A stretch of 64,000 bases of DNA from Escherichia phage vB_EcoM_LNA4, in the sequence record MZ311864.1; one strand, written 5' to 3'. Each line of letters begins with the position of its first letter. Position 1 is the first letter of the stretch. The notes below the pieces were generated by a model. That model was given only the letters and a program-made list of their open reading frames with translations, had not been told where the DNA came from and ran no database searches. This document shows positions 14,810 to 42,262 of this stretch, piece after piece. The position numbers and the translations under genes were made by a program.

Positions 14810-15379
14810 TTACCCTCCAAAAGATGAGCGACTGCTCACAGAGCTACCAAAACCACCACGAGAAGATGTGGTGCTACGAGAAACCGTTGTACGAGGAGAC
14901 TGCACTGTCGGCTTTGCAGCAGAGCTTGTCACCTTGAACGTTTGACCAGGACGTGCATTGTAGCTACGGAACTTATTGTCCATATACTGCCCTGAACGAT
15001 CCTGATACAGCGGTGCTGAATGATAACCGGAGTTCATGCTGTTACCCATCATGTACCCCATCATCAACGGCATCCATGAAGAACCGCTGTCTGAACTGCT
15101 TGGGTTGTGTCGGCACTGATCACCGAACTCAGCGTAGCAGTCAGAGTAAGTAGCATAGCGTGGCGCTGTTTCATTTGCAACCTTTTCTGCTTCCTGTCTT
15201 GCTGCACGACACTGATCTGGTTTGTGCGTATCTGCAATACACTCATCAACATTTTTGTACATCTTCATGTCGATGTCTGCTTGCTCACAACCTGCAACTG
15301 TGATTGCTACCGCAAAAGGCAGGGCATAGCGCCCCACCTTCCGGAAAGCATTCTTATTGATATGCTTTGTTCTTTTCAC
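14810..15379 (-). CDS. YgiB-like (DUF1190-like) lipoprotein
   Basis: Signal peptide with lipobox VAGC; conserved-looking PRYATYSDCYAEFGDQC and WMPLMMGYMMG motifs; Ser/Thr-rich tail. Confidence 0.6.
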   Translation of the reverse strand: MKRTKHINKNAFRKVGRYALPFAVAITVAGCEQADIDMKMYKNVDECIADTHKPDQCRAARQEAEKVANETAPRYATYSDCYAEFGDQCRHNPSSSDSGSSWMPLMMGYMMGNSMNSGYHSAPLYQDRSGQYMDNKFRSYNARPGQTFKVTSSAAKPTVQSPRTTVSRSTTSSRGGFGSSVSSRSSFGG

Positions 15380-15393
15380 TTATCCACCTTTAC

Positions 15394-15573
15394 CTAAACT
15401 AACGAGGGCATCACTGCAACCAGTGCGCCTGCGACCATCCCGATAAACATTCCGCCACCAACTAACCAACCAAAATCCCCTGTTCCAAACTTGAGGCCAC
15501 CGCAAAATGCTGTAAGCACAGAACAGACAGTGATTAAAAGAAATACACTTATGAATACCAGTACCTGTTTCAT
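15394..15573 (-). CDS. small membrane protein (59 aa, below ORF-track cutoff)
   Basis: GAGGA RBS then ATG; hydrophobic MKQVLVFISVFLLITVCSVL... Confidence 0.4.
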   Translation of the reverse strand: MKQVLVFISVFLLITVCSVLTAFCGGLKFGTGDFGWLVGGGMFIGMVAGALVAVMPSLV

Positions 15574-16277
15574 TTTGATTCCTCTTTACGCCACTTGTAA
15601 GCACCATACACAGAGTTTAGCAGGAAAGTGACCCACATTGCAAGGTTTGCTGCTCCAGCACCTTCGTGGTGTAACGTCAGGTTAACCCACATACCTACCG
15701 CAACGATATTCACAATGATCCACACATACCACTGTTCAGCATAACGAGTCATCATTAAGTATGTTGCCAGTACAGACAGGATAGCTGTCGCTGCATCTGG
15801 ACCTGGAAGTGAGCCTTTCAGCAGGGAGATCCCTTCGGCATACAAACCAATCACAATCAGTGTACTAATACCCACCAACCAACGTTGTTTTGTGGTCAGA
15901 TAGTTCTTGATGACATCTGCACGTTCACCGTCAGCAGAAACGTTCAGCTTACGCGCCCAGATAATACCACCAATGACCTGCATAGGGGTGAATAGGACGG
16001 TGTACATGATCGTTTCGCCATACAGTTTATATGTGAATGACACATACGCATACAGCACTGTCGCGATGAAGCCCCAATAGTAGCTGGAAAGTTTACCTTT
16101 CGCAACCAAAATTGCACCGACGATACCTGTCACGGAAGAGATAAACTCCACCATAGTACCACCAGTGACGATAGAAACTGTCGCGATGGATGCGGAACAG
16201 ATCAGAAGCCAGAGGTATTCGAGTTTTGTCCAACCATAGAAGTCTGTCCAGGTTGTTTTTACGTATAGATTCATCAT
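15570..16277 (-). CDS. pnuC: nicotinamide riboside/NMN transporter PnuC
   Basis: 235 aa multi-pass membrane protein with PnuC-like Trp/Gly-rich helices; AGGAG RBS. Confidence 0.75.
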   Translation of the reverse strand: MMNLYVKTTWTDFYGWTKLEYLWLLICSASIATVSIVTGGTMVEFISSVTGIVGAILVAKGKLSSYYWGFIATVLYAYVSFTYKLYGETIMYTVLFTPMQVIGGIIWARKLNVSADGERADVIKNYLTTKQRWLVGISTLIVIGLYAEGISLLKGSLPGPDAATAILSVLATYLMMTRYAEQWYVWIIVNIVAVGMWVNLTLHHEGAGAANLAMWVTFLLNSVYGAYKWRKEESK

Positions 16278-16529: not shown

Positions 16530-16810
16530 AGAATGCTCTCCAGCCTTTTCAGAAGCACTTCGATCTTTGGATTCGCTGCACCGTTACCGTACAACTTATA
16601 CTTAAGATCCAGTACAGCGTCAAGCAATTCTGGTGCTGCTGCGATCAGTTTTGCATTTGCACGGGCCTCTTCGTAATCCGTCCCGTAACACTTAGCAACC
16701 TTCACATCATGCAGAATACCAGTCCCGACTTCTGTGCCGTCATTAGTCCAAGGACCAGGGGAATATTTAACCATTTTGGCTCCTTTGTTTAGCCCATTCA
16801 ATTGCCGCAA
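16526..16810 (-). CDS. hypothetical protein
   Basis: 94-aa ORF; start may be internal. Confidence 0.4.
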   Translation of the reverse strand: MRQLNGLNKGAKMVKYSPGPWTNDGTEVGTGILHDVKVAKCYGTDYEEARANAKLIAAAPELLDAVLDLKYKLYGNGAANPKIEVLLKRLESIL

Positions 16811-17105
16811 GTATCACATCGCAATGACATGCTACTTCTTTGTTCGGCTGTTTACAAAAGCATACAAGGTCTTTACCGTCCAAGTCAAGCAGATCTTGAA
16901 TAGTTATTTTGCCTGCGCGGATCTGTTGCCATAACCAGACACGATATCTTTCAATTGTGGCCCCACGAGGCTCATCCTTCGACAACTTATATGGGTTAGC
17001 GAATTTAGACTGCTTCAGACCAAGGTGGGGCATTGCTCGCCCCATGTACTCAGCATTCTCAGGTATCACTTTACCGATGTGGTAGAAGTTGAGCACCTTA
17101 GCCAT
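16767..17105 (-). CDS. DUF4326-like protein (CxC...CHC motif)
   Basis: 112 aa with CFCKQ...CHCDV motif. Confidence 0.45.
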   Translation of the reverse strand: MAKVLNFYHIGKVIPENAEYMGRAMPHLGLKQSKFANPYKLSKDEPRGATIERYRVWLWQQIRAGKITIQDLLDLDGKDLVCFCKQPNKEVACHCDVILAAIEWAKQRSQNG

Positions 17106-17883: not shown

Positions 17884-18957
17884 TTATTCTCCTTTGATAT
17901 TCAGCAAGTTACGGACAGCTTCTTCGGCCTTTTGAATACGATCTTCGTAATCACTGCCGGAGATAACCACCACCTTGCTTGTATCGTAAGATGCTCTGAT
18001 CATTGTGTCAAGCAAAGAATGTGTTTCTTTACGCTTTTCTGGAGTATCCTGCAAGCGAAGAGGATCAGCAACCCACGGAACCTCTGGGGTGAGGAACAAG
18101 AACAAGTCATAGAAATTGTAGCCCTCTTCACGGCTCAGTGTCCGGAACAGCAGATCTGAGTAATCGATCTTGTCTGCACAAACACCAGAGAAGTGTGTGA
18201 TCAGATTTGTGGTGTCGGAGAACATTACCCCACGGTCACCCCAACCTGCCACCTCCATCTCCTTCAGGCGGTGCTCCATTGCAATACGCAGGTAATCCTC
18301 ACGGGTCATTGCAAACTCGCTTGAATGATACTCACGCTCACAGATCAGCCTTCCGATCTCAGGAATCCAGGCAGCACCGAACGTGTGTGCCAAGTGTTCG
18401 GTCATGGTCGTTTTTCCTGTGCTCTCTACACCAATGATAGCCACCTTCTTAATGAAGCGCTTACGTGCAGGCCACGACAAGTGGTAGAAATTCTTGTACG
18501 GGTCATTACGGATCATTGTGGCTGAGACAGGAACAGCTTTACGTTCTGCGTCGATAACAACATGCTTCGCTTCAGGGAAGAACTCACTGAAGTAAGACTC
18601 GTACTCCGGCTCAGAAGAGAAAGCAAAGTCGTACTTAACGAAAGGTTGTTTTTCACGGATCAGTTTTGCATAAGCAGCACCGCCTTCAGGGTATCCGGGG
18701 ATATTCGACTCATCAACGTAGTCAACCTTCACGTTATCCAGACCCTCATCGGCAATAACATCCAGCAGGTCACGATAGCGGTCAGCAAGGCCCAACTTTG
18801 GACGAATCCACTCTGGTTGAGCGTCAACAAATTTCTGGTCATACGACAGGAACAGATACAGGCAACTTACCTGCGAGGCCGCCTGGCGAATGAACTCAAT
18901 ATGCCCGTTGGTCAGCGGTGCAAATTTTCCGAAGATAAGGCCGCGAGTCATAGTCAT
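17884..18957 (-). CDS. nadR: NadR-like bifunctional NMN adenylyltransferase / ribosylnicotinamide kinase (no HTH domain)
   Basis: GKFAPLTNGHIEFI nucleotidyltransferase motif and C-terminal Walker A IIGVESTGKTT; start at ATG after AAGGA RBS. Confidence 0.75.
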   Translation of the reverse strand: MTMTRGLIFGKFAPLTNGHIEFIRQAASQVSCLYLFLSYDQKFVDAQPEWIRPKLGLADRYRDLLDVIADEGLDNVKVDYVDESNIPGYPEGGAAYAKLIREKQPFVKYDFAFSSEPEYESYFSEFFPEAKHVVIDAERKAVPVSATMIRNDPYKNFYHLSWPARKRFIKKVAIIGVESTGKTTMTEHLAHTFGAAWIPEIGRLICEREYHSSEFAMTREDYLRIAMEHRLKEMEVAGWGDRGVMFSDTTNLITHFSGVCADKIDYSDLLFRTLSREEGYNFYDLFLFLTPEVPWVADPLRLQDTPEKRKETHSLLDTMIRASYDTSKVVVISGSDYEDRIQKAEEAVRNLLNIKGE

Positions 18958-18958
18958 A

Positions 18959-19279
18959 TTATTGATCCTTCTGGCATTTGTAGACTTGTGACACACGGGT
19001 CACAGACTTTTTGGTTGGGTTGATAGATGACCCCTGATACCAGCGAGACTCTTCGCTCAGAACATTCCCCACCTGAGCATCCTTTTTAGGGATCACTGTG
19101 TCGATGCAGGTCTCACCCATACTATCCTTCATATGGGACCAAATGCTCAGAGAAAAACGCTCGATCTTGTTGCACACCTCGACCTTGCACATAGGTTCGG
19201 TCTGGAAATCATCATCTTCTTCCGCATGGGCGGCTCCAACAAAAGCCATAGCCAGCAGAGCAATCGTTAATTTTTTCAT
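18959..19279 (-). CDS. secreted/periplasmic protein
   Basis: Signal peptide MKKLTIALLAMAFVGAAHA; Cys-containing mature part. Confidence 0.5.
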   Translation of the reverse strand: MKKLTIALLAMAFVGAAHAEEDDDFQTEPMCKVEVCNKIERFSLSIWSHMKDSMGETCIDTVIPKKDAQVGNVLSEESRWYQGSSINPTKKSVTRVSQVYKCQKDQ

Positions 19280-20388: not shown

Positions 20389-20862
20389 TTAAATCCTCGC
20401 TTTGTTATTTACAATAGTGGAGATAACCGACTGATTAACTCCGTATAACCTTGCTAACGCTCTCGTTCCACGATCCCTTGAATACGGAACATATGCATCT
20501 CTGATCTCAGCCACTTGTAAATCTGTAAGCTTATGATGAGGATGCTCCTCATTCTTAACAGGCTTCAAAAGTCCGGTCTCTGAGGCATGTTCCATATTCT
20601 CTTTTACGGTTGACCATTCGAGATTATCAACATGGTTGTTCTCTTTGTTACCGTCCTTGTGATTAACAAAGGGTTTGTCATCAGGGTTGGGAATATACTG
20701 CATTGCTACCAGTCTGTGAACAAGAAAGTTCCTAATCTTCCCATCTATAGTTGTATGAACCTTCATGTACCCATTTTTAAGACGGGTTTGTTTTATGACA
20801 TTGCCCGTCTTTACCCTGGTAACAACCTTTCCGTCAACACTAACAACGAACAGGCTGTTCAT
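20389..20862 (-). CDS. HNH homing endonuclease
   Basis: HRLVA...NHKDGNKENNHVDNLEW HNH core; sits beside the DNA polymerase gene. Confidence 0.65.
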   Translation of the reverse strand: MNSLFVVSVDGKVVTRVKTGNVIKQTRLKNGYMKVHTTIDGKIRNFLVHRLVAMQYIPNPDDKPFVNHKDGNKENNHVDNLEWSTVKENMEHASETGLLKPVKNEEHPHHKLTDLQVAEIRDAYVPYSRDRGTRALARLYGVNQSVISTIVNNKARI

Positions 20863-35081: not shown

Positions 35082-35235
35082 GAATGATCCTCGCTTTTTG
35101 AACTGAGAAGACAAACGTACCATGTTCCTCTACGTATTGTCTACCCATTTCTTCATCTTCGAAGATAAGAGTATCAACCTCAGACTTCACTGGCCTGTCC
35201 TTAACAGGCCGTGAGGTGCATACGATTAGCGCCAT
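35050..35235 (-). CDS. hypothetical protein
   Basis: 62 aa; ATG overlaps stop of RNA ligase gene (TAATG). Confidence 0.35.
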   Translation of the reverse strand: MALIVCTSRPVKDRPVKSEVDTLIFEDEEMGRQYVEEHGTFVFSVQKARIIHAADTTEVRS

Positions 35236-36281
35236 TACAGAGGACTCTCGTTCAGCTTCTGCATGTACCAACCACGAGATTTGTTGCTGATGAACTTCGC
35301 AACATCCTTCATGGTCAGGGAGTTAGCTTCCAGAACATCGCCTTCTTCCTTGTTGATGTCACGGCTAACCCAGGCAATGAACTCACCGATCTTAGATTGG
35401 TCGAGACCAACTTCACCAAGAGCCTGCTCAAGGCGGTTCTCAGTCACAGCGTACTCAACGAACTCACGCATGTTCTGGAGCCGTACCGGGTCAACCTCTG
35501 CCAGGGTTTTAACCTTGGATACAGAGTGCTTCTCACCCTTCACTTTGAACCACAGGCCGGAGTCTTTAGCCAGTTCTGGTTGCAGCGGGGACCAAACGAT
35601 ACCCTCACCTACACCCTCAACACCAAAGTGTTTACCAACCGGGCAGGATGCTTCCACCTGCATCGTCAGGGTTGTCAGATCGTTCTGTACCTGCTCAGGT
35701 TCATTGAACGGAATATTCACGGACCAGAAACCAAAGTCAAGAACACTGAAGATCCGCTCTTGTGGCAGGCCAATGCCGTACTGGAAGTTTGGTGGCATCC
35801 AGTTCAGGGCGTTGCCCTCTTCATTGCGACCAACAGCAACACGGAAGATCGTGAAGAAAGGTTCAACCTCACTTACAGCCACACCTTTCTGGATACCACG
35901 ACCAGCCCACTCACCAGCGATCTCAACCGGGAAGGAGAACGGTGTGCCGTTGCATTCGCATAGGTATTTAACCTGCTCCAGAAGTTCTTTGGTATCTTTA
36001 CGCACCATGAACGCAGCAAAGCCGTTGTTGTCGTCACCGACTTGGACGATACGTTCTTTGGACTGGAAAACAACCTCATCTTCAGAGTGGAAGACAATGC
36101 TGCCATTGGTCCCGTGGATCTTAACCGTACCAATGTACGGGATCAGGTACTGATCCGGCGCAACAACCTTACGCTTGATGTTACCATTCTCATCAATCCC
36201 GTCAAAGGTCAGACGATCATGGATTGCCTTAATCACTTGGCGGAACTGGTGAGTGCTTGGGTATTTAATAGGTTTAGTCAA
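35235..36281 (-). CDS. RNA ligase (Rnl2-like)
   Basis: Motif I VKIHGTNGS and GEWAGRGIQKGV match the T4 Rnl2 pattern; start set at TTG after AAGGAG. Confidence 0.7.
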   Translation of the reverse strand: MTKPIKYPSTHQFRQVIKAIHDRLTFDGIDENGNIKRKVVAPDQYLIPYIGTVKIHGTNGSIVFHSEDEVVFQSKERIVQVGDDNNGFAAFMVRKDTKELLEQVKYLCECNGTPFSFPVEIAGEWAGRGIQKGVAVSEVEPFFTIFRVAVGRNEEGNALNWMPPNFQYGIGLPQERIFSVLDFGFWSVNIPFNEPEQVQNDLTTLTMQVEASCPVGKHFGVEGVGEGIVWSPLQPELAKDSGLWFKVKGEKHSVSKVKTLAEVDPVRLQNMREFVEYAVTENRLEQALGEVGLDQSKIGEFIAWVSRDINKEEGDVLEANSLTMKDVAKFISNKSRGWYMQKLNESPL

Positions 36282-36663
36282 CTTTAGACTCCTTTTTAGG
36301 TGCAATCGCTTGTGTGATCAGGTTGTCGATGTCGTCAACCCACTCTGGGGTGCGTAGGAACAGCATCAGATTCATTGTCTGAAGCAAATACGCACTGTTT
36401 TGTGTGATCGCATAGATATCGTAACCATCTACCAGCAGTCGTTCAACTGTCGATGTACGGATGGGCTTATTATCAAAGCCACGGCCTTGATGATCACGAC
36501 CATCTAAAAAACCACAAATACAACGAGGCCAGACCTCTACGTGGGGACGGGCATTAACCACCACCCCAGCAAAGAGCTTACCACCGATGAATTTTGGTTC
36601 AGGAACAGTCTGTGCCAGACGAATTGGATCACCAACACCAACCTCAGATTTACTCATTGTCAT
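36274..36663 (-). CDS. hypothetical protein
   Basis: 129 aa from ATG after GAGGGG RBS. Confidence 0.45.
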   Translation of the reverse strand: MTMSKSEVGVGDPIRLAQTVPEPKFIGGKLFAGVVVNARPHVEVWPRCICGFLDGRDHQGRGFDNKPIRTSTVERLLVDGYDIYAITQNSAYLLQTMNLMLFLRTPEWVDDIDNLITQAIAPKKESKVD

Positions 36664-36922
36664 TACTTTTCCCCTCAAATATGTATCGTACAAGAAGTTC
36701 ACTAATCTGAACTATGACATAACGCGTTTGTTCATCGAACTTAACCTTCACCGGGCGATCCCCGTTATTCGGATCATAGACAGTCTTGGAGCAAAGATTC
36801 CATGCGTTCTTAGCCGCCCCGGTGGTGACCCACCCAATCTTTGTACCGTTCGAGTTCCAAAGCTTACCCTCTTGAGTATCGTATATGACGAATACTGAGT
36901 CAAGGTGTTTTTTAGACTTCAT
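36650..36922 (-). CDS. hypothetical protein (paralog of next gene)
   Basis: About 90 aa; shares pattern with 36912..37154 product. Confidence 0.4.
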   Translation of the reverse strand: MKSKKHLDSVFVIYDTQEGKLWNSNGTKIGWVTTGAAKNAWNLCSKTVYDPNNGDRPVKVKFDEQTRYVIVQISELLVRYIFEGKSNDNE

Positions 36923-37354: not shown

Positions 37355-37536
37355 TTCCAGTTCCCATTGAAAAGCCGCAGCACCAAGAGGTTCATGAAGT
37401 ACAGGGGCCAAAGCAGGCCCATGAACACACCACCAAGAAGATCCATAGTGTCTAATCTCCAGAATTGCTGCGCTCTTTTCATGAAGATATAAAACCCTAC
37501 AAATGCGAACAGAAGATAGGTAATCCCAACCATCAC
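37351..37536 (-). CDS. small membrane protein
   Basis: 61 aa, two hydrophobic helices. Confidence 0.45.
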   Translation of the reverse strand: MMVGITYLLFAFVGFYIFMKRAQQFWRLDTMDLLGGVFMGLLWPLYFMNLLVLRLFNGNWK

Positions 37537-38024
37537 TTTTTCTCCGGAAGGATATAAACTGTTACATCACAATCCCAGAAAACAGATTTGATCATCGCTT
37601 CAATGACGTTCCAGTCACCACCTGCAAGACCAGCACCGATTTTCGGGAAGCCGATTTTGTAGTCAGCCATAGAGCCGTCTGTAAAGCTCTGTAAGGCCTT
37701 CTTCATCTGATCCAACGAATCATACAGGGCATTGTAATCGAGGTCACGTAGGCCCTGTTTACGGCGATTATAACCATATTGCGAATACAGATTAAATCCT
37801 GCGAGAGATCCGTCCTTCATGAAGGCCACAGTGAAGGTCCCAAGTTTGGCTTTATCACCTTTCTCGGTCTTCAGATCCGCAGCGTACATTTTAGGGAACG
37901 CTTCTTTGATCAGTGGAGCTATACCGCTACCCATTGTGCAATAACAATTGCAGCCATGCGCAAAAACATTAACCTCACCAGATTTCACAGCCTCAATTAG
38001 GTCGCCTACTTTATACTTAAGCAT
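37533..38024 (-). CDS. macro-domain protein (ADP-ribose binding/processing)
   Basis: 163 aa; AHGCNCYCTMGSGIA and GFPKIGAGLAGGDW resemble macro-domain Gly-rich loops. Confidence 0.6.
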   Translation of the reverse strand: MLKYKVGDLIEAVKSGEVNVFAHGCNCYCTMGSGIAPLIKEAFPKMYAADLKTEKGDKAKLGTFTVAFMKDGSLAGFNLYSQYGYNRRKQGLRDLDYNALYDSLDQMKKALQSFTDGSMADYKIGFPKIGAGLAGGDWNVIEAMIKSVFWDCDVTVYILPEKK

Positions 38025-38527
38025 CAGTCCTCCACTATAATATCATGAATCGTTTTTACGTATGCTTGATAACATTCACTCGCTTCCTCAGCGGAGTCGA
38101 ATGTTCCAAGGTGGATCTTACTATACACAGCATGGTATCTTAACCTAGTCCACCTTTTGTCTACGAATACACCACGGAATCCTGTTTGGTTCTTCTTTCC
38201 TCTGCTGTAATTGTAGACGTTTACAAACTTCTGGACATCCCTGAGGTTAGTAATACGATTGTTATCTTTTTGTCTGTCCTTGTGGTCAATAAAATAAGTG
38301 GGCCACACGCCGTAATAAAAAGCCCAGGCCACTCTGTGTGCCAAGAAGTAAAAACCTTTACCTTCAATCTTAACACCAAGCCTTACGTAACCGTCTTTTC
38401 TTTTTGTGCCTGCAACCTTTCCAAAATGACGACGAGCGAGAGGATTGATACACGTAAACAAACCTGTCTCAGGGTCATATGAGAAGGAAGATTTAAGCGC
38501 CTGTAATGCCTCTTCACTCTCCTTCAT
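38024..38527 (-). CDS. HNH homing endonuclease with AP2-like DNA-binding domain
   Basis: AHRVAW...IDHKDRQKDNNRITNLR HNH core and GFRGV...RW AP2-like region. Confidence 0.6.
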   Translation of the reverse strand: MKESEEALQALKSSFSYDPETGLFTCINPLARRHFGKVAGTKRKDGYVRLGVKIEGKGFYFLAHRVAWAFYYGVWPTYFIDHKDRQKDNNRITNLRDVQKFVNVYNYSRGKKNQTGFRGVFVDKRWTRLRYHAVYSKIHLGTFDSAEEASECYQAYVKTIHDIIVED

Positions 38528-38745
38528 CAGTAATCCTCTTTCAGTATACTCATGATAGGCTCGATAAGATATTGAGCCTTAACCTTTTTATAACCACCAG
38601 GGTCAGGAACCTTCATTGTGATAACGTGATGTTCGCCAATGATCTCTATATCAAAGTCATCACATGAGAATGTTGCAACCCGCCCAACAACTGTCAGGAT
38701 TGATACCTGTTTTGGTCTTGAATCATCAAGAATCGTCATGCACAA
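38527..38745 (-). CDS. hypothetical protein
   Basis: 72-aa ORF. Confidence 0.4.
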   Translation of the reverse strand: MCMTILDDSRPKQVSILTVVGRVATFSCDDFDIEIIGEHHVITMKVPDPGGYKKVKAQYLIEPIMSILKEDY

Positions 38746-38912
38746 CTCCTTTCTATGAAAGCAGTCATGCTCTCACGAGCTTCTGCTTTGGTTTTAGCAC
38801 AGACAACGAACACTCGATGCCCTTTATAGGTGTATCCTCCCATAACAATGTTGGCGGTGTCAAGCCACCAACGCTCGTTTAGTTCAGATTTTGGGAATTT
38901 AAACTTAGCCAT
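38736..38912 (-). CDS. hypothetical protein
   Basis: 58 aa from internal ATG overlapping upstream stop. Confidence 0.35.
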   Translation of the reverse strand: MAKFKFPKSELNERWWLDTANIVMGGYTYKGHRVFVVCAKTKAEARESMTAFIERSCA

Positions 38913-39109
38913 TAGCGATTGTACCATGCAACATGTGTGGCCCACTCTGGACGTGGTTTCCAGCAACTTAGGTTCGACTCATACTTGTCGTTTTTGCACC
39001 AGTAACCGTCCCCATCGTCAGGGATGAATGCCCCGACCCTAACACAGTTTGTCCAGTCCTCCACGGACATAACATCAGCATAGTCCGGGATGGGTTTGAA
39101 TTCTACCAT
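38912..39109 (-). CDS. hypothetical protein
   Basis: 65-aa ORF. Confidence 0.4.
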   Translation of the reverse strand: MVEFKPIPDYADVMSVEDWTNCVRVGAFIPDDGDGYWCKNDKYESNLSCWKPRPEWATHVAWYNR

Positions 39110-39396
39110 AACTCCCCCTTCATTAAGACAATATGGTTGCGTTGAGCAAAGTCACGAACAAAGTGAACATACTCTTTGTCGTGTTCAGAAATCTTAGCCA
39201 GAATCGCCCCGGCAGATTCACCAGCAGTCCAAGAAGACTGGCAGAAACCACTGTCTTCTCGAATGTGACAGTTCTTTGCATCAGGACCGTACTGGTCTTT
39301 CACGTAGTCGATATCGAGGGAGCCAAGACGAACAAGGCGATCATCGCCCTCTTTATCAACGATGTAAATATAACCGAAACCAGGTCTACGACTCAT
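39103..39396 (-). CDS. hypothetical protein
   Basis: 97-aa ORF. Confidence 0.45.
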   Translation of the reverse strand: MSRRPGFGYIYIVDKEGDDRLVRLGSLDIDYVKDQYGPDAKNCHIREDSGFCQSSWTAGESAGAILAKISEHDKEYVHFVRDFAQRNHIVLMKGELW

Positions 39397-39545
39397 GCTT
39401 TGCTCTCCACGTAATATGGTAGGCGTCTGATCAGGTCTTCAGGAGCACCGTTCTCTGTCCAGGTAAGGCCCTGGTCACCAGACACATAGCCTTTCCCGTT
39501 GACAAACTTGCGCCAGACATTGCGGAACTGGTTTTTGTAGATCAT
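39393..39545 (-). CDS. small hypothetical protein (50 aa)
   Basis: ATGA overlaps at both ends; not in ORF track (short). Confidence 0.35.
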   Translation of the reverse strand: MIYKNQFRNVWRKFVNGKGYVSGDQGLTWTENGAPEDLIRRLPYYVESKA

Positions 39546-39763
39546 TCGATCACGCTCCAGCCTTCATCCTGCCAGGATTCTCCACGATACCAACCTGCCA
39601 TAGGGCAACCGTCTTCTGCGTAGATACGACCACCAACCATTTCAAACCACTCATCACTGGTGAAATATTGGTTGCGTACACGCTTACCTTCGCGCATGGC
39701 CTGCTGTGCTTCTTTCCAGGTTAATTTAGACACGGAATTGCCCCTTCTTGTTCTTGAAGCCAT
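39542..39763 (-). CDS. possible DUF2829/Tad2-like small protein
   Basis: 73 aa; TWKEAQQAMREGKRVRN...W pattern; from memory only. Confidence 0.3.
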   Translation of the reverse strand: MASRTRRGNSVSKLTWKEAQQAMREGKRVRNQYFTSDEWFEMVGGRIYAEDGCPMAGWYRGESWQDEGWSVIE

Positions 39764-40067
39764 TAGAGATCTTCTGACCAGCCAAGAATTTCGGATTTGT
39801 CAGACGAGATTCAAAAGACTGACGGACCTTGTGTGCCAGCTTAGAGCAGTAATCCACATCGGACAGTGCTTCTTGGTTCGCTTTAACACGGATACGCTTC
39901 ACACTCGGAACGATGGTCAGACCACCAAAGCCGTCAACGTAATAGAACTCGACCTCATAACCGTCAGTGGTCAGTTCGTTGAAGATTGGGAATGTCTGTT
40001 GCAGTGCCTCTTTATGTGCAAGAGACATCAGACGTTGTTGGTCGTTCAAAGTTTCAGTGATTTGCAT
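39726..40067 (-). CDS. hypothetical protein
   Basis: 113 aa from ATG after GAGGA RBS. Confidence 0.45.
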   Translation of the reverse strand: MQITETLNDQQRLMSLAHKEALQQTFPIFNELTTDGYEVEFYYVDGFGGLTIVPSVKRIRVKANQEALSDVDYCSKLAHKVRQSFESRLTNPKFLAGQKISNGFKNKKGQFRV

Positions 40068-40125
40068 TGAGTTTATCCTCGTTTTGTTTGGTATGCACAA
40101 AGATTAACAGCCTCCGAAGAGGCTG

Positions 40126-40815
40126 TCAAATGTTTTTCGCAGGTTTTTTAGATGATCCTCGGTTGTAGGGTATTCCTCCCCACTCCATGTTCTCAATTAT
40201 ATATCCATTGAAGCATGTCTCATCCCCACACTCGTGCTGTGTTTTTGTCAGGAATGTTATGTAATTTCGATCTTCTGTTACCATGTGTACACTGTACATT
40301 TCCCTGAACCTGTCACATCGCAAGATAGTTCCGGGGATGCTTACCTTATCCCTTGAAGGTTTGTAATAATTAGCCCGATCCTGGATAGACAGGTACGCAC
40401 CAAGACAGGCGGCCTTCAGAGAGCAAGAGACCTTCAGATTATCAAAATCACCCCCGCTGATATACCACAGCAGGAGGGGTGGAGGACAATCCTCAAACGC
40501 AACACCCGCCCATTCACCGAAGGGGAATATTCCCCTTTCGATAAAATTGAGGTGCCTGCGCTGTGTGTCTGTCTCCACATCAACATAACTTCTTTTCTGC
40601 TTCAGGTCTATGCTTCTGTCGTAACTCTCCTCTCCCAACAAAGGTAAAGACCTTTTAAAGTAGTCTTCAGCAGCAAATTCAGGACTGTAGCTCTCCGAAC
40701 CAAGGGAGATAACAGAGGCATAAGCCCATTCATCTCCACTGTTGATGCAGAGTTTAAGCTCATAAAACCCAAGCTCATGTTGTTGACGATACAGAATCCA
40801 GCGATCTACAGACAC
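40126..40815 (-). CDS. hypothetical protein
   Basis: 229-aa ORF. Confidence 0.45.
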   Translation of the reverse strand: MSVDRWILYRQQHELGFYELKLCINSGDEWAYASVISLGSESYSPEFAAEDYFKRSLPLLGEESYDRSIDLKQKRSYVDVETDTQRRHLNFIERGIFPFGEWAGVAFEDCPPPLLLWYISGGDFDNLKVSCSLKAACLGAYLSIQDRANYYKPSRDKVSIPGTILRCDRFREMYSVHMVTEDRNYITFLTKTQHECGDETCFNGYIIENMEWGGIPYNRGSSKKPAKNI

Positions 40816-40824
40816 AAAGCCCCC

Positions 40825-42033
40825 TTAGTTCACGATTGCATCAACACCATCAGAGAAGTTCTTACGGTATTCTGTGATGATCTCCATGACAACCGGGTAT
40901 TTCTGGAGCAGTTTAGCAGGTAAACGCTCACGGTTCCCGGACATTAAGATCGCTTTACCGAAGGAGTTCTCCTGGATGAACGACATGAACACAGAACTAA
41001 CGAAGTCGCGGTTGGATGCCGTATCATGCTGACCGAAGTTATCATACATATACTTCAGGAAGTTCGCAGCGAACGCGATTACCTCATCGTCGGTATACTC
41101 TTTGTTCTGGATCGCCTTGCGTAACCAGATAGACCCCTGAGAGCCTAGAGTCCACAGGATATCCGAAGAGTCAGCACCCGTATGTTTGGTGAGTTTGCCA
41201 CTCATAACATCTTGGATAGAGACCATTTTGGAGATACGGGTATGGTATTCCCACAGTTCGTTAGCCAGAGGCTTACCGATACTGCCCTGCAACGATGCCA
41301 GAGCCAGACGAGCAGACAACAGGCCAGCGTCATAATCGTACAGAATATCACTTGCCGTTACCCAGGTGCGTGGTGTGGCGTATGAAGGGGAGTTAATCTC
41401 CAGCATCTCTTCATAGTTCTCAATCTTACCTGGGTTTGCGCTCACAAAACCAACAACCGATGGATGGACATCGTTGTGCATGGCGTAGTCCTGCAACCAG
41501 ACAGTCGTGTCGTAATCCAGTTCGACGAGGATCATACGGTTAGCTAGCGGAGCTTCCAGCATACTTACCGCAGTACCATCACCAGGGCGGTTGCCTGCAC
41601 CTGCAAACACCGCACCTGCCGGGAATTTGTATGTACCGATCTTGTGATCAAGCATGATCTGATAGGCAACTTTCTGGAGATATGGTTCCGCGTGTAGCAA
41701 TTCATCCAGGAATACAATACCCTTCCAGTTCGGGTCATCAGGCCAGAAGCTTGGAATAGCATACACAGTGCGTGTAATACCATTGTCGTCGGTTACGGGG
41801 ATCTGCACCCCAACAACGTCAGACGGTTCTTTATCCGCAAGACGGAAGTCGATCAGGTTATCGTCGCGGTCACCAAACATCATGTTGGCTACCTGCTTCA
41901 TTGCCTGGCTCTTGCCAAGACCTGCACCGCCAAACATCATCAGGGCGCGTCCACGACGCTGACAGAACTTCATCAGATCAGGCACATCCCGAAGCGTGAT
42001 ACGGTTCTCGTCAAAAATGTTACGACTCGACAT
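40825..42033 (-). CDS. AAA+ ATPase (MoxR/AAA_5-like)
   Basis: Walker A MFGGAGLGKSQ and Walker B VFLDELL; start at ATG after AAGGAG. Confidence 0.6.
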   Translation of the reverse strand: MSSRNIFDENRITLRDVPDLMKFCQRRGRALMMFGGAGLGKSQAMKQVANMMFGDRDDNLIDFRLADKEPSDVVGVQIPVTDDNGITRTVYAIPSFWPDDPNWKGIVFLDELLHAEPYLQKVAYQIMLDHKIGTYKFPAGAVFAGAGNRPGDGTAVSMLEAPLANRMILVELDYDTTVWLQDYAMHNDVHPSVVGFVSANPGKIENYEEMLEINSPSYATPRTWVTASDILYDYDAGLLSARLALASLQGSIGKPLANELWEYHTRISKMVSIQDVMSGKLTKHTGADSSDILWTLGSQGSIWLRKAIQNKEYTDDEVIAFAANFLKYMYDNFGQHDTASNRDFVSSVFMSFIQENSFGKAILMSGNRERLPAKLLQKYPVVMEIITEYRKNFSDGVDAIVN

Positions 42034-42262
42034 TAGTTTGTCTCCTTTGTTCAAGATAGTTTTCGATTATCCCCTCTACATCTCCGGGGTCGATATCATT
42101 GTATAGGGTATGGATTCTCTCTGCAAGGTCTTTCGGCAATAACTTATCTGTTTGATGCACCCTACCAGCACCAAAAACCACATACCATGCACGACGACTC
42201 AGGCGGTGCCGTTGACGAGGAACGTCCCTGTTAAAATCTAAAGGCTTCACTTCTCCACCCAT
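42020..42262 (-). CDS. hypothetical protein
   Basis: 80-aa ORF. Confidence 0.4.
   Translation of the reverse strand: MGGEVKPLDFNRDVPRQRHRLSRRAWYVVFGAGRVHQTDKLLPKDLAERIHTLYNDIDPGDVEGIIENYLEQRRQTNVES

What the first reader, a model, noticed from the sequence alone, without database searches (positions are those of the whole stretch)
37533..39763. Macro-domain protein and possible Tad2-like small protein near the NAD salvage genes
The macro-domain protein (37533-38024) could remove ADP-ribose marks or degrade ADP-ribose-derived signals. The 73-aa protein at 39542-39763 has a DUF2829-like pattern, the family I recall for a Thoeris anti-defence signal sponge. With PnuC-NadR and the DUF4326-like protein this suggests a multi-part NAD+/ADP-ribose counter-defence toolkit spread over about 25 kb.
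Basis: inference. Interest (0 to 1): 0.6.

Follow-up and report, generated by a model that had tools for sequence, protein, structure and literature searches.

The report
Phage macrodomain and mini Tad2-fold protein
A large enterobacterial phage carries a well-known type of enzyme that probably strips ADP-ribose marks off its DNA. About 1.5 kb away it has an unannotated 63-residue protein that is a stripped-down relative of the Tad2 "sponge" phages use to soak up bacterial alarm molecules.

Summary
The window is a Seunavirus-like (Vequintavirinae) myophage.

**Macro gene, 37533-38024(-):**
- It is a confident macrodomain: Pfam Macro above threshold, AF2 pLDDT 94.8, Foldseek to TARG1 at E 5.5e-12.
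- It belongs to the SCO6735/BT1257 subclass. H23, N26 and Q82 match SCO6735 H24, N27 and Q85. It has Gln where DarG and TARG1 have the catalytic Lys.
- It is a full-length homologue (34% identity) of T4-type Tk.4, reported as AdfM, an anti-DarTG2 factor.
- Most likely role: removing ADP-ribose from DarT2-modified thymidines. This is a new member of a known kind.

**Small gene:**
- It most likely starts at GTG 39733, giving 63 aa rather than 73.
- It has no Pfam hit of its own.
- A family profile aligns end-to-end with true Tad2 (HHalign 93.6%; controls 4% or less).
- It lacks the Tad2 insertion and the SQTD ligand motif, so sponge function and ligand remain unproven.
- The family occurs in 467 phage records; every annotated row among the 40 listed reads "hypothetical protein", apart from one "putative capsid protein" and one bare locus name.

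**Context:** PnuC, DUF4326 and NadR are confirmed, but they form a separate cluster about 19-22 kb away. The "toolkit" is a shared theme, not one system.

The parts
37533..38024 (-). Macrodomain protein, 163 aa. SCO6735/BT1257-subclass, ALC1-like/TARG1-like macrodomain; homologue of T4-type Tk.4 (AdfM). Key residues: H23, N26, Gly-rich loops G32-S33-G34 and G130-A-G-L-A-G-G136, Q82, and a basic 'mobile loop' R87-R88-K89.
   Evidence: Pfam Macro 25.9 bits. phrog_335 E 1.3e-62. AF2 pLDDT 94.8. Foldseek TARG1 E 5.5e-12, TaqDarG 5.8e-10, Poa1p 1e-9. Family profile against the PDB: BT1257 2.9e-22, SCO6735 4.2e-19. BLASTP against RB7 Tk.4: 34% identity, E 2e-27. Residue mapping.
39542..39733 (-). 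Predicted topology: helix 6-14, strands 19-21, 30-33, 36-39 and 59-61. Lacks the Tad2 insertion between beta2 and beta3.
15570..16277 (-). PnuC-type nicotinamide riboside/NMN transporter. Context gene; part of a separate NAD+ salvage cluster.
   Evidence: PF04973 E 3.2e-37.
16767..17105 (-). DUF4326 protein, 112 aa, lying between PnuC and NadR. Context gene.
   Evidence: PF14216 66.7 bits, E 2.9e-18. PMC9503650 proposes that this family processes terminal phosphates of ADPr derivatives.
17884..18996 (-). NadR-like bifunctional protein (cytidylyltransferase-like NMN adenylyltransferase domain plus AAA_28 ribosylnicotinamide-kinase-type domain). Context gene.
   Evidence: PF13521 E 1e-21 and PF01467 E 6.3e-5.

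Best explanation
These are two independent accessory genes of the counter-defence type. They sit in a tightly packed run of small minus-strand genes (40100 down to 37533) in the early/middle region of a Seunavirus-like myophage. (1) The 163-aa macrodomain binds ADP-ribose through its two glycine-rich loops and hydrolyses the ribose-base bond using the His23/Asn26/Gln82 set. This is the lysine-independent, water-activating mechanism described for SCO6735. Its most likely substrate is ADP-ribosyl-thymidine that DarT2 toxins place on single-stranded phage DNA, so it would act as a free-standing antitoxin-like enzyme (AdfM type) that keeps replication going on DarTG2 hosts. (2) The 63-aa protein is a remote homologue of the Tad2/DUF2829 sponge that has lost the insertion domain. 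It keeps the helix-alpha1/beta-sheet core and a C-terminal loop segment of the same 20-residue length, rich in aromatic residues. The most likely mechanism is that it oligomerises and sequesters a nucleotide-derived immune signal in an interface pocket. Because the canonical gcADPR-contacting residues are replaced, the ligand cannot be assumed to be the type I Thoeris signal. Shown here: folds, homology, active-site residues and distribution. Inferred: substrates, oligomeric state and any ligand binding. The PnuC-DUF4326-NadR cluster about 19-22 kb away is a separate NAD+ salvage module with a related theme, not part of one system with these genes.
Against: No activity was measured for either protein. 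Macro gene: it lacks the DarG/TARG1 catalytic Lys and the TARG1 Asp. The T4 AdfM evidence is genetic, from a preprint, and at only 34% identity. SCO6735 also acts on Glu/Asp-ADP-ribosylated proteins, so DNA need not be the only substrate. Small gene: the protein has no Pfam hit of its own. The narrow-family HHalign covers only 25 N-terminal columns at 77.7%, and Foldseek E-values are 0.13-0.6. The invariant Tad2 ligand motif N26...W73-x-x-S-Q-T-D79 is replaced (T25; G51-E52-S53). The family's own conserved polar residues (H/N21, E28, E40) have no counterpart in Tad2. Helix alpha2, which forms the Tad2 dimer interface, lies in the deleted segment. No oligomer model could be made.
Confidence: 0.5

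Rival explanations
1. The small protein has the Tad2 fold but is not a signal sponge. The compact helix plus beta-sheet domain has been reused for something else, for example binding a host protein or nucleic acid. The family's own conserved residues (H/N21, E28, E40, W59) would serve that different function.
For: The canonical ligand residues are not conserved, and the dimer-forming alpha2 segment is deleted. Family members are fused to a SEC-C motif and to peptide deformylase rather than to known sponge families such as Acb4 or Sequestin (compare). The protein has no Pfam hit.
Against: Every solved structure that resembles the model is a Tad2 sponge. Tad2 homologues are already known to have widely divergent ligand specificities and pockets. 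The protein is short and phage-restricted, and tandem-duplicated forms exist, as expected for sponge-like oligomers.
Confidence: 0.4
2. The macrodomain works mainly on substrates other than DNA. Candidates are ADP-ribosylated proteins or RNA, O-acetyl-ADP-ribose, or soluble ADP-ribose-derived signals.
For: SCO6735 and TARG1 also hydrolyse Glu/Asp-linked protein ADP-ribose. PMC9503650 argues that many viral macro domains may prefer soluble ADPr derivatives. No DNA substrate was tested here.
Against: The only functional data for this clade of phage proteins (T4 Tk.4) and for the Gln-type subclass (SCO6735) point to thymidine-ADPr on DNA. A basic mobile loop (R87-R88-K89) follows Q82, as in the DNA-binding groove of SCO6735.
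Confidence: 0.2
3. The macrodomain is an ADP-ribose-1''-phosphate phosphatase (Poa1p type) that clears a by-product of RNA repair. This would match its database label 'phosphatase' and the RNA ligase 2 gene about 1.2 kb downstream (35235-36305).
For: Poa1p is among the sequence and structure hits. The H-x-C-N motif is shared with Poa1p. An RNA ligase gene is nearby. The RefSeq and PHROG label is 'phosphatase'.
Against: Poa1p scores well below BT1257, SCO6735 and TARG1 (1e-10 against 1e-19 to 1e-22). No Tpt1/KptA 2'-phosphotransferase, the enzyme that generates this substrate, was seen among the ORFs scanned. The 'phosphatase' label appears to be inherited from the old 'Appr-1-p processing' name of the Macro family (my inference). 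In T4 the tk.4 knockout phenotype is against DarTG2.
Confidence: 0.1
4. PnuC, DUF4326, NadR, the macrodomain and the Tad2-like protein form one co-regulated, co-inherited NAD+/ADP-ribose counter-defence system.
For: All five lie on the same strand in the early/middle region and share the NAD+/ADPr theme. In other viruses DUF4326 is found fused to Macro, NADAR and SLOG domains.
Against: About 40 other predicted genes, including the DNA polymerase, helicases and rIIA/rIIB, lie between the two groups. In phage SKA64 the macro and small genes are 13.5 kb apart, and each family also occurs in T4-like, Felix O1-like and T5-like (small gene only) phages; whether they sit together there was not examined. 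Nothing was found that suggests a physical or regulatory link.
Confidence: 0.1

Closest known systems
T4 Tk.4 / AdfM (anti-DarT factor macrodomain) and phage PHROG 335 'phosphatase'
   Same: Full-length homology: 34% identity, E 2e-27 to the RB7 Tk.4 orthologue. Same length class (159-163 aa). Same motifs: AHGCNC..TMGSG, NLY[ST]QY and P[KR]IG.G.AGGDW, including Gln at the DarG Lys80 position. Same PHROG.
   Different: Only 34% identical, in a different phage family (Vequintavirinae against Straboviridae) and a different genomic neighbourhood. Activity against DarTG2 is not tested for this protein.
Streptomyces coelicolor SCO6735 and Bacteroides BT1257 (Gln-type subclass of ALC1-like macrodomains)
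   Same: These are the best PDB sequence matches (2.9e-22 and 4.2e-19 with the family profile). The H24/N27/Q85 equivalents are conserved. The Lys/Asp dyad is absent. A basic mobile loop follows the Gln.
   Different: They are cellular proteins, not phage-encoded. Identity is about 25%. The phage protein has S33 where SCO6735 has K34.
DarG2 antitoxin macrodomain (T. aquaticus, M. tuberculosis) and PhiKZ AdfM
   Same: Same fold (Foldseek E 5.8e-10). The conserved Asn (N22 to N26) and Gly-rich loops are shared. The predicted substrate class is the same.
   Different: The catalytic Lys80 (K78 in PhiKZ AdfM) is Gln82 here. There is no C-terminal DarT-binding domain.
Tad2 / DUF2829 (PF11195): SPO1 Tad2, HgmTad2 (AcrIIA7), ModTad2, SptTad2
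   Different: 63 aa against 86-104 aa, because the beta2-beta3 insertion (SPO1 residues about 39-62, including alpha2) is missing. N26 and the W..SQTD ligand motif are replaced. The family has its own invariant residues (H/N21, E28, E40). It falls below the Pfam threshold. Oligomeric state and ligand are unknown.
Phage PnuC-NadR operon (hypothesised third NAD+ reconstitution route) and viral DUF4326
   Same: The window has the PnuC plus NadR pair noted by Osterman et al. in BASEL phages. DUF4326 is the family discussed by Iyer et al. 2022.
   Different: Here DUF4326 sits inside the PnuC-NadR cluster as a separate gene rather than fused to Macro, NADAR or SLOG. Function is untested in both cases.

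Membership tests
Macro domain (PF01661) | Profile match above Pfam's gathering score | tested here: met
   25.9 bits against a cut-off of 22; residues 23-140 cover profile positions 2-113 of 118.
Macro domain (PF01661) | Three-layer alpha/beta/alpha macro fold | tested here: met
   AF2 pLDDT 94.8, pTM 0.90. Foldseek finds 199 PDB hits at E<=1e-3; the 39 best-scoring hits are all macrodomains, and TARG1 tops the list at E 5.5e-12.
Macro domain (PF01661) | Glycine-rich ADP-ribose/diphosphate-binding loops | tested here: met
   M31-G-S-G-I-A36 and G130-A-G-L-A-G-G136 align with the loops of TARG1, DarG and SCO6735. G34, G132 and G136 are invariant in 41 homologues.
SCO6735/BT1257 Gln-type subclass of ALC1-like macrodomains | His24, Asn27 and Gln85 equivalents present; Lys/Asp dyad of TARG1 absent | tested here: met
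   H23, N26 and Q82 align to H24, N27 and Q85 (numbering checked against the residues mutated in PMC9411070). TARG1 K84 maps to Q82 and D125 to A134.
SCO6735/BT1257 Gln-type subclass of ALC1-like macrodomains | Hydrolysis of thymidine-linked ADP-ribose on ssDNA | not testable with these tools
   Needs a biochemical assay with a DarT2-modified oligonucleotide.
AdfM (T4 Tk.4-type anti-DarT factor) | Full-length sequence homology to Tk.4 | tested here: met
   BLASTP 34% identity, E 2e-27, residues 1-156. tblastn hits T4-like tk.4 loci.
AdfM (T4 Tk.4-type anti-DarT factor) | Protects the phage against DarTG2 | not testable with these tools
   Only genetic data for T4 exist.
DarG2 antitoxin | Catalytic Lys80 | tested here: not met
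   Gln82 occupies this position and is invariant in the family.
DarG2 antitoxin | C-terminal DarT-binding domain | tested here: not met
   The protein is a single 163-aa macrodomain.
Tad2 / DUF2829 (PF11195) | Pfam profile match (gathering score 25 bits) | tested here: not met
   No hit for the window protein, even at E<=1. Distant relatives score 14-24 bits, and a few about 30 (best E 7e-7 and 2.4e-7).
Tad2 / DUF2829 (PF11195) | Tad2 fold (N-terminal helix plus antiparallel sheet) | tested here: met
Tad2 / DUF2829 (PF11195) | Detectable common ancestry by profile comparison | tested here: met
   HHalign of A5 against A4: 93.6%, E 2e-7, 66 columns end-to-end. Controls gave 4% or less and scores of 17 or less, against 39.7. 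The narrow family alone reaches only 77.7% over 25 columns.
Tad2 / DUF2829 (PF11195) | gcADPR-contacting residues (SPO1 W25, N26, D67, W73, S76, T78, D79; Hgm W21/N22 and S90/T92/D93) | tested here: not met
   W25 to F24 (aromatic kept); N26 to T25; D67 to D41; W73 to W48; S76/T78/D79 to G51/E52/S53. The loop alignment is of low confidence.
Tad2 / DUF2829 (PF11195) | Homotetramer with interface pockets | not tested
The alpha2 dimer element lies in the deleted segment.
Tad2 / DUF2829 (PF11195) | Sequesters an immune signalling nucleotide | not testable with these tools
   Needs binding assays or in vivo defence assays.
PnuC / NadR NAD+ salvage pair | PF04973 transporter next to a cytidylyltransferase plus AAA_28 NadR-type protein | tested here: met
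   The two genes lie 1.6 kb apart on the same strand.
DUF4326 (PF14216) | Profile match above the gathering score | tested here: met
   66.7 bits against a cut-off of 25.

The most novel reading that the evidence does not exclude
The 63-aa protein represents a previously unrecognised, insertion-less class of Tad2-fold sponge with its own conserved signature (A9, G16, H/N21, F24, E28, E40, aromatic residues at 48/49/54, G58-W59). It would sequester an immune signal other than the canonical type I Thoeris 3'cADPR, for example His-ADPR, N7-cADPR or a cyclic (oligo)nucleotide. It is already present, among genes labelled 'hypothetical', in hundreds of well-studied enterobacterial phages: rV5-like, phi92, Felix O1-like, T5-like (including a BASEL phage) and Klebsiella T4-like.
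Probability: 0.25. Interest if true: 0.7.

Novelty: new variant of a known kind. Interest (0 to 1): 0.45.

Why it matters
The macrodomain adds little on its own. It extends the recently described AdfM/Tk.4 class to Vequintavirinae, and it shows that this phage clade uses the Gln-type (SCO6735-like) active site rather than the DarG Lys. That is worth knowing when choosing catalytic-dead mutants, and it corrects the inherited label 'phosphatase'.

The small protein is the more useful lead. Tad2 sponges are among the most versatile phage counter-defence proteins, inhibiting CBASS, Pycsar and Thoeris I, II and IV. A 63-residue version that keeps only the core would define the minimal Tad2 scaffold and possibly a new ligand specificity. 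The family sits in 467 sequenced phages, including model and therapeutic coliphage and Klebsiella phage groups, so a function could be assigned quickly and would re-annotate many genomes. If it does not bind any signal, that would show the Tad2 fold is not diagnostic of sponge function. This matters for structure-based anti-defence prediction pipelines.

Tried and rejected
- **Direct searches with the small protein.** Pfam (E<=1) and PDB sequence searches gave nothing significant. The only hint was SptTad2 at E 1.2 and ModTad2 at E 0.17, over the N-terminal 22-25 residues.
- **Narrow-family HHalign.** The 15 close homologues against Tad2 aligned over only 25 columns (77.7%). A broader 61-member family alignment was needed.
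- **Fusion partners.** I scanned 43 longer family members for known sponge domains (Acb4, Sequestin and others). None was found; only a SEC-C motif, peptide deformylase and tandem self-repeats turned up.
- **Second copies.** I looked for a canonical Tad2 or a second copy of the mini-family in the window with custom HMMs. There was none.
- **Neighbouring ORFs.** I scanned ORFs from 33.9 to 45.2 kb for further NAD/ADPr-related domains (NADAR, Nudix, KptA, ART, sirtuin). None was found; only the cell-wall hydrolase, RNA ligase, HNH and a weak HD domain appeared.
- **T5-like neighbourhood.** The family member's neighbourhood in Bas26 is all hypothetical proteins and uninformative.
- **Promoter and terminator scan.** Promoter-like sites were not enriched over shuffles, so transcription-unit boundaries remain uncertain.
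- **A corrected memory.** I initially recalled DUF4326 as the 'DrHyd' domain. PMC9503650 places it in the rhodanese-phosphatase superfamily instead.
- **Supplementary tables.** Those of the Tad2 diversity preprint are not held. I could not check whether this mini-family is already among its 2,783 'Tad2 homologs'. The authors' HHpred cut-off of 0.9 makes that possible.
Full report
**What the window is.** The 6 kb around the finding is 94% identical to Cronobacter phage GAP31, with Enterobacter phage EC152 and Escherichia phage 4MG also close. All three are large myophages; GAP31 is classified as Seunavirus, Vequintavirinae. The flanking 25 kb and 22 kb map to the same genomes. From about 11 kb to 45 kb nearly all genes are on the minus strand, and the GC skew is negative throughout. 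This region carries replication genes, rIIA/rIIB and many small genes of unknown function.

**Checking the observation.** The 163-aa ORF at 37533-38024(-) and the ORF at 39542-39763(-) are both present.
- The first matches Pfam Macro above its gathering score (25.9 against 22 bits).
- The second has no Pfam match, even at E<=1.
- Its 15 close homologues are typically 63-65 aa and cover only 86% of the 73-aa translation. The GAP31 orthologue is annotated at 63 aa.
- A GTG at 39733 is preceded by AAGGGG at a 7-nt spacing and overlaps the upstream gene's stop by 8 nt. I therefore take 39542-39733 (63 aa) as the gene.
- The context claims hold: PnuC at 15570-16277 (PF04973, E 3.2e-37), a NadR-type protein at 17884-18996 (AAA_28 plus cytidylyltransferase-like), and DUF4326 at 16767-17105 (66.7 bits).

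**The macrodomain: fold.** AlphaFold2 with 41 homologues gives pLDDT 94.8. Foldseek against the PDB returns TARG1 (E 5.5e-12), BT1257, the DarG macrodomains and Poa1p as the best matches. By sequence, the family profile is closest to BT1257 (2.9e-22) and SCO6735 (4.2e-19). TARG1 follows at 7.5e-17, Poa1p at 1e-10 and DarG at 5e-9.

**The macrodomain: active site.** I verified the M. tuberculosis DarG sequence against 5M3I and extracted the T. aquaticus DarG sequence from the same search; the human TARG1 sequence was recalled from memory and checked only through its K84/D125 numbering. An alignment of these with the window protein and the Tk.4 orthologue shows:
- DarG Asn22 corresponds to N26 (invariant).
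- DarG Lys80 and TARG1 Lys84 correspond to Gln82 (invariant in the family).
- TARG1 Asp125 corresponds to Ala134.

This is exactly the situation described for SCO6735. That enzyme lacks the Lys/Asp dyad and has Gln85 at the Lys position. It is inactivated by Q85A, yet it removes ADP-ribose from DarT-modified thymidine faster than DarG and rescues E. coli from DarT (PMC9411070). The numbering of the SCO6735 chain reproduces the mutated residues H24, V25, N27, K34, Q85 and K89 of that paper. The equivalences H23/N26/Q82 therefore rest on a checked alignment.

**The macrodomain: phage relatives.**
- tblastn finds the protein in 3021 phage records, including T4-like tk.4 loci.
- The RB7 Tk.4 orthologue is 34% identical over its full length (E 2e-27) and shares all motifs, including the Gln.
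- A 2025 preprint reports that tk.4 is the single T4 gene needed on DarTG2 hosts and names it adfM.
- A 2026 paper shows that PhiKZ gp104, a Lys-type macrodomain also called AdfM, de-ADP-ribosylates DNA.

The most economical reading is that the window's protein is an AdfM-type DNA de-ADP-ribosylase with the SCO6735-type mechanism. I think the database label 'phosphatase' is an inheritance from the old 'Appr-1-p processing' name; this is my inference. Activity on proteins, RNA or soluble ADPr derivatives is not excluded.

**The small protein: structure.** AlphaFold2 on the 15-sequence alignment gives pLDDT 90.6, with a helix (6-14) and four strands.
- Foldseek against the PDB places eleven Tad2 chains (SPO1, Mod and Spt) at the top, with probabilities 0.77-0.98 and TM-scores 0.59-0.70. 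The E-values are only 0.13-0.6, as expected for 63 residues.
- 8KBI, deposited as AcrIIA7, is HgmTad2. Every structure that resembles the model is therefore a Tad2.

**The small protein: sequence homology.**
- An exhaustive profile search found 311 relatives at E<=1e-3. Most are 58-75 aa, and some are longer.
- Of 106 relatives scanned, 53 touch Pfam PF11195 ('Tad2-like') at E<=0.1. The best is 7e-7, and no other family recurs in more than two members. Individually they mostly score 14-24 bits, below the 25-bit cut-off.
- I recovered SPO1 Tad2 (gp34.65) from the genome and confirmed its published ligand residues by position. I then built a 53-member alignment of proteins that all carry PF11195.
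- HHalign of the narrow family against it aligns only the N-terminal 25 columns (77.7%).
- A 61-member alignment of the mini-family aligns end-to-end (66 columns, 93.6%, E 2e-7).
- Reversed, column-shuffled (30 times) and unrelated (macro) controls reach at most 4% and a score of 17, against 39.7.

I conclude that this is a genuine remote homologue of Tad2.

**How the small protein differs from Tad2.**
- The alignment deletes SPO1 residues about 39-62. This is the insertion between beta2 and beta3 that contains alpha2. It is known to vary in length, to bind cyclic dinucleotides in HgmTad2, and to be separate from the gcADPR-binding core.
- The segment between the third strand and the last strand is 20 residues in both proteins.
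- Among the gcADPR contacts: W25 becomes F24 (aromatic in 60 of 61 family members); N26 becomes T25; D67 becomes D41; W73 becomes W48.
- The invariant S76-Q-T78-D79 becomes G51-E52-S53.
- The mini-family has its own near-invariant residues: A9, G16, H/N21, F24, E28, E40, G58 and W59. Positions 29, 48, 49 and 54 are aromatic.
- A sponge function is thus plausible: a small, phage-restricted protein with the Tad2 fold and an aromatic-rich loop, with tandem-duplicated relatives. Tad2 homologues are also known to have very different specificities. But function is not shown, and the ligand cannot be inferred.
The Tad2 dimer element alpha2 lies in the deleted part.

**Distribution and prior knowledge.**
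- The mini-family occurs in 467 phage records: Vequintavirinae including phi92, Klebsiella and Citrobacter T4-like phages, Felix O1-like phages, and T5-like phages including BASEL phage Bas26. Of the 40 records listed, the annotated rows read 'hypothetical protein', apart from one 'putative capsid protein' and one bare locus name.
- A full-text search for 'Tad2-like' found nothing about such a family.
- The Tad2 diversity preprint collected clusters by HHpred probability above 0.9 to PF11195, so some members may already sit in its tree. I could not check.

**The 'toolkit' idea.**
- PnuC, DUF4326 and NadR form a 3.4-kb cluster. The PnuC-NadR pair has already been pointed out as a possible third phage NAD+ reconstitution route. 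DUF4326 has been proposed to process terminal phosphates of ADPr derivatives.
- The macro gene and the small gene lie about 19-22 kb away from that cluster, with about 40 predicted genes in between.
- The two are only 1.5 kb apart from each other, within a run of overlapping small genes (40100 down to 37533) that may form one transcription unit.
- In phage SKA64 they are 13.5 kb apart, and each family also occurs in other phage groups; I did not examine whether they are linked there.
- I therefore treat them as independent accessory genes with a shared theme, not as a system.

**Verdict.** Both folds are right. The macro function is best narrowed to DNA de-ADP-ribosylation (AdfM/SCO6735 type). 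The small protein is a real but divergent, minimal Tad2 homologue whose sponge function and ligand remain open. The macro gene is a new member of a known kind. The small gene is a new variant of a known kind and the only part worth an experiment.

Noticed in passing
window 38024-38527 (-): An HNH homing-endonuclease-like gene (PF13392, E 1.5e-12, plus a weak AP2-like C-terminal region) directly abuts the macro gene with a 1-nt overlap. A second HNH_3 gene lies at 20389-20862(-). PVP-SE1-type relatives also list an HNH endonuclease next to the 'phosphatase'.
   Followed up: partly
proteins P0198, P0271, P0252, P0179, P0222, P0254 (metagenomic relatives of window 39542-39733): Some mini-Tad2-family members are fused to a C-terminal SEC-C zinc motif (PF02810) or to a peptide deformylase (PF01327, E 2.7e-36). 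Several others end in lysine-rich tails, and others are tandem duplications of the domain. SEC-C and deformylase are both known as ribosome- or SecB-associated elements. The meaning of this is unknown.
   Followed up: partly
phage records NC_047884.1 (saus132), PP105779.1, NC_092681.1; locus L005: In three T5-like phages the mini-Tad2-family gene appears twice per record. For saus132 and SIY1lw the annotation under the match is a terminal repeat ('left terminal repeat', 'repeat_region'). That is the region injected first in T5, which would suit an early counter-defence role.
   Followed up: no
window 40129-40104 (-), in the gap between ORFs 40126-40815 and 39726-40100: A strong hairpin (GACAGCCTC-TTCG-GAGGCTGT, with a UUCG-type tetraloop) followed by a T-rich stretch sits in the only real intergenic gap upstream of the small-gene run. 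A promoter-like site (ATGAGA-16-TATAAT) lies at 40223-40196. This may be a transcript boundary or an RNA-stability element.
   Followed up: no
window 40825-42054 (-): A 409-aa protein is annotated 'MoxR ATPase' in GAP31, PVP-SE1 and 4MG. It contains a GGAGLGKS Walker-A-like motif but has no Pfam hit at E<=0.01.
   Followed up: no
window 35235-36305 (-) and 36274-36702 (-): An RNA ligase 2-type gene (PF09414, E 3.2e-8) lies about 1.2 kb downstream of the macro gene. It is followed by a 142-aa protein that PHROGs labels 'methyltransferase' (phrog_16099) but that has no Pfam support.
   Followed up: partly
window 14810-15379 (-): A DUF1190 protein (PF06693, E 7.9e-39) is encoded just downstream of PnuC, next to the NAD salvage cluster. 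Its function is unknown.
   Followed up: no
window about 45-46 kb: Gene orientation and GC skew switch sign here. Genes are on the minus strand from 11 to 45 kb and on the plus strand beyond. This marks a divergent transcription boundary.
   Followed up: no
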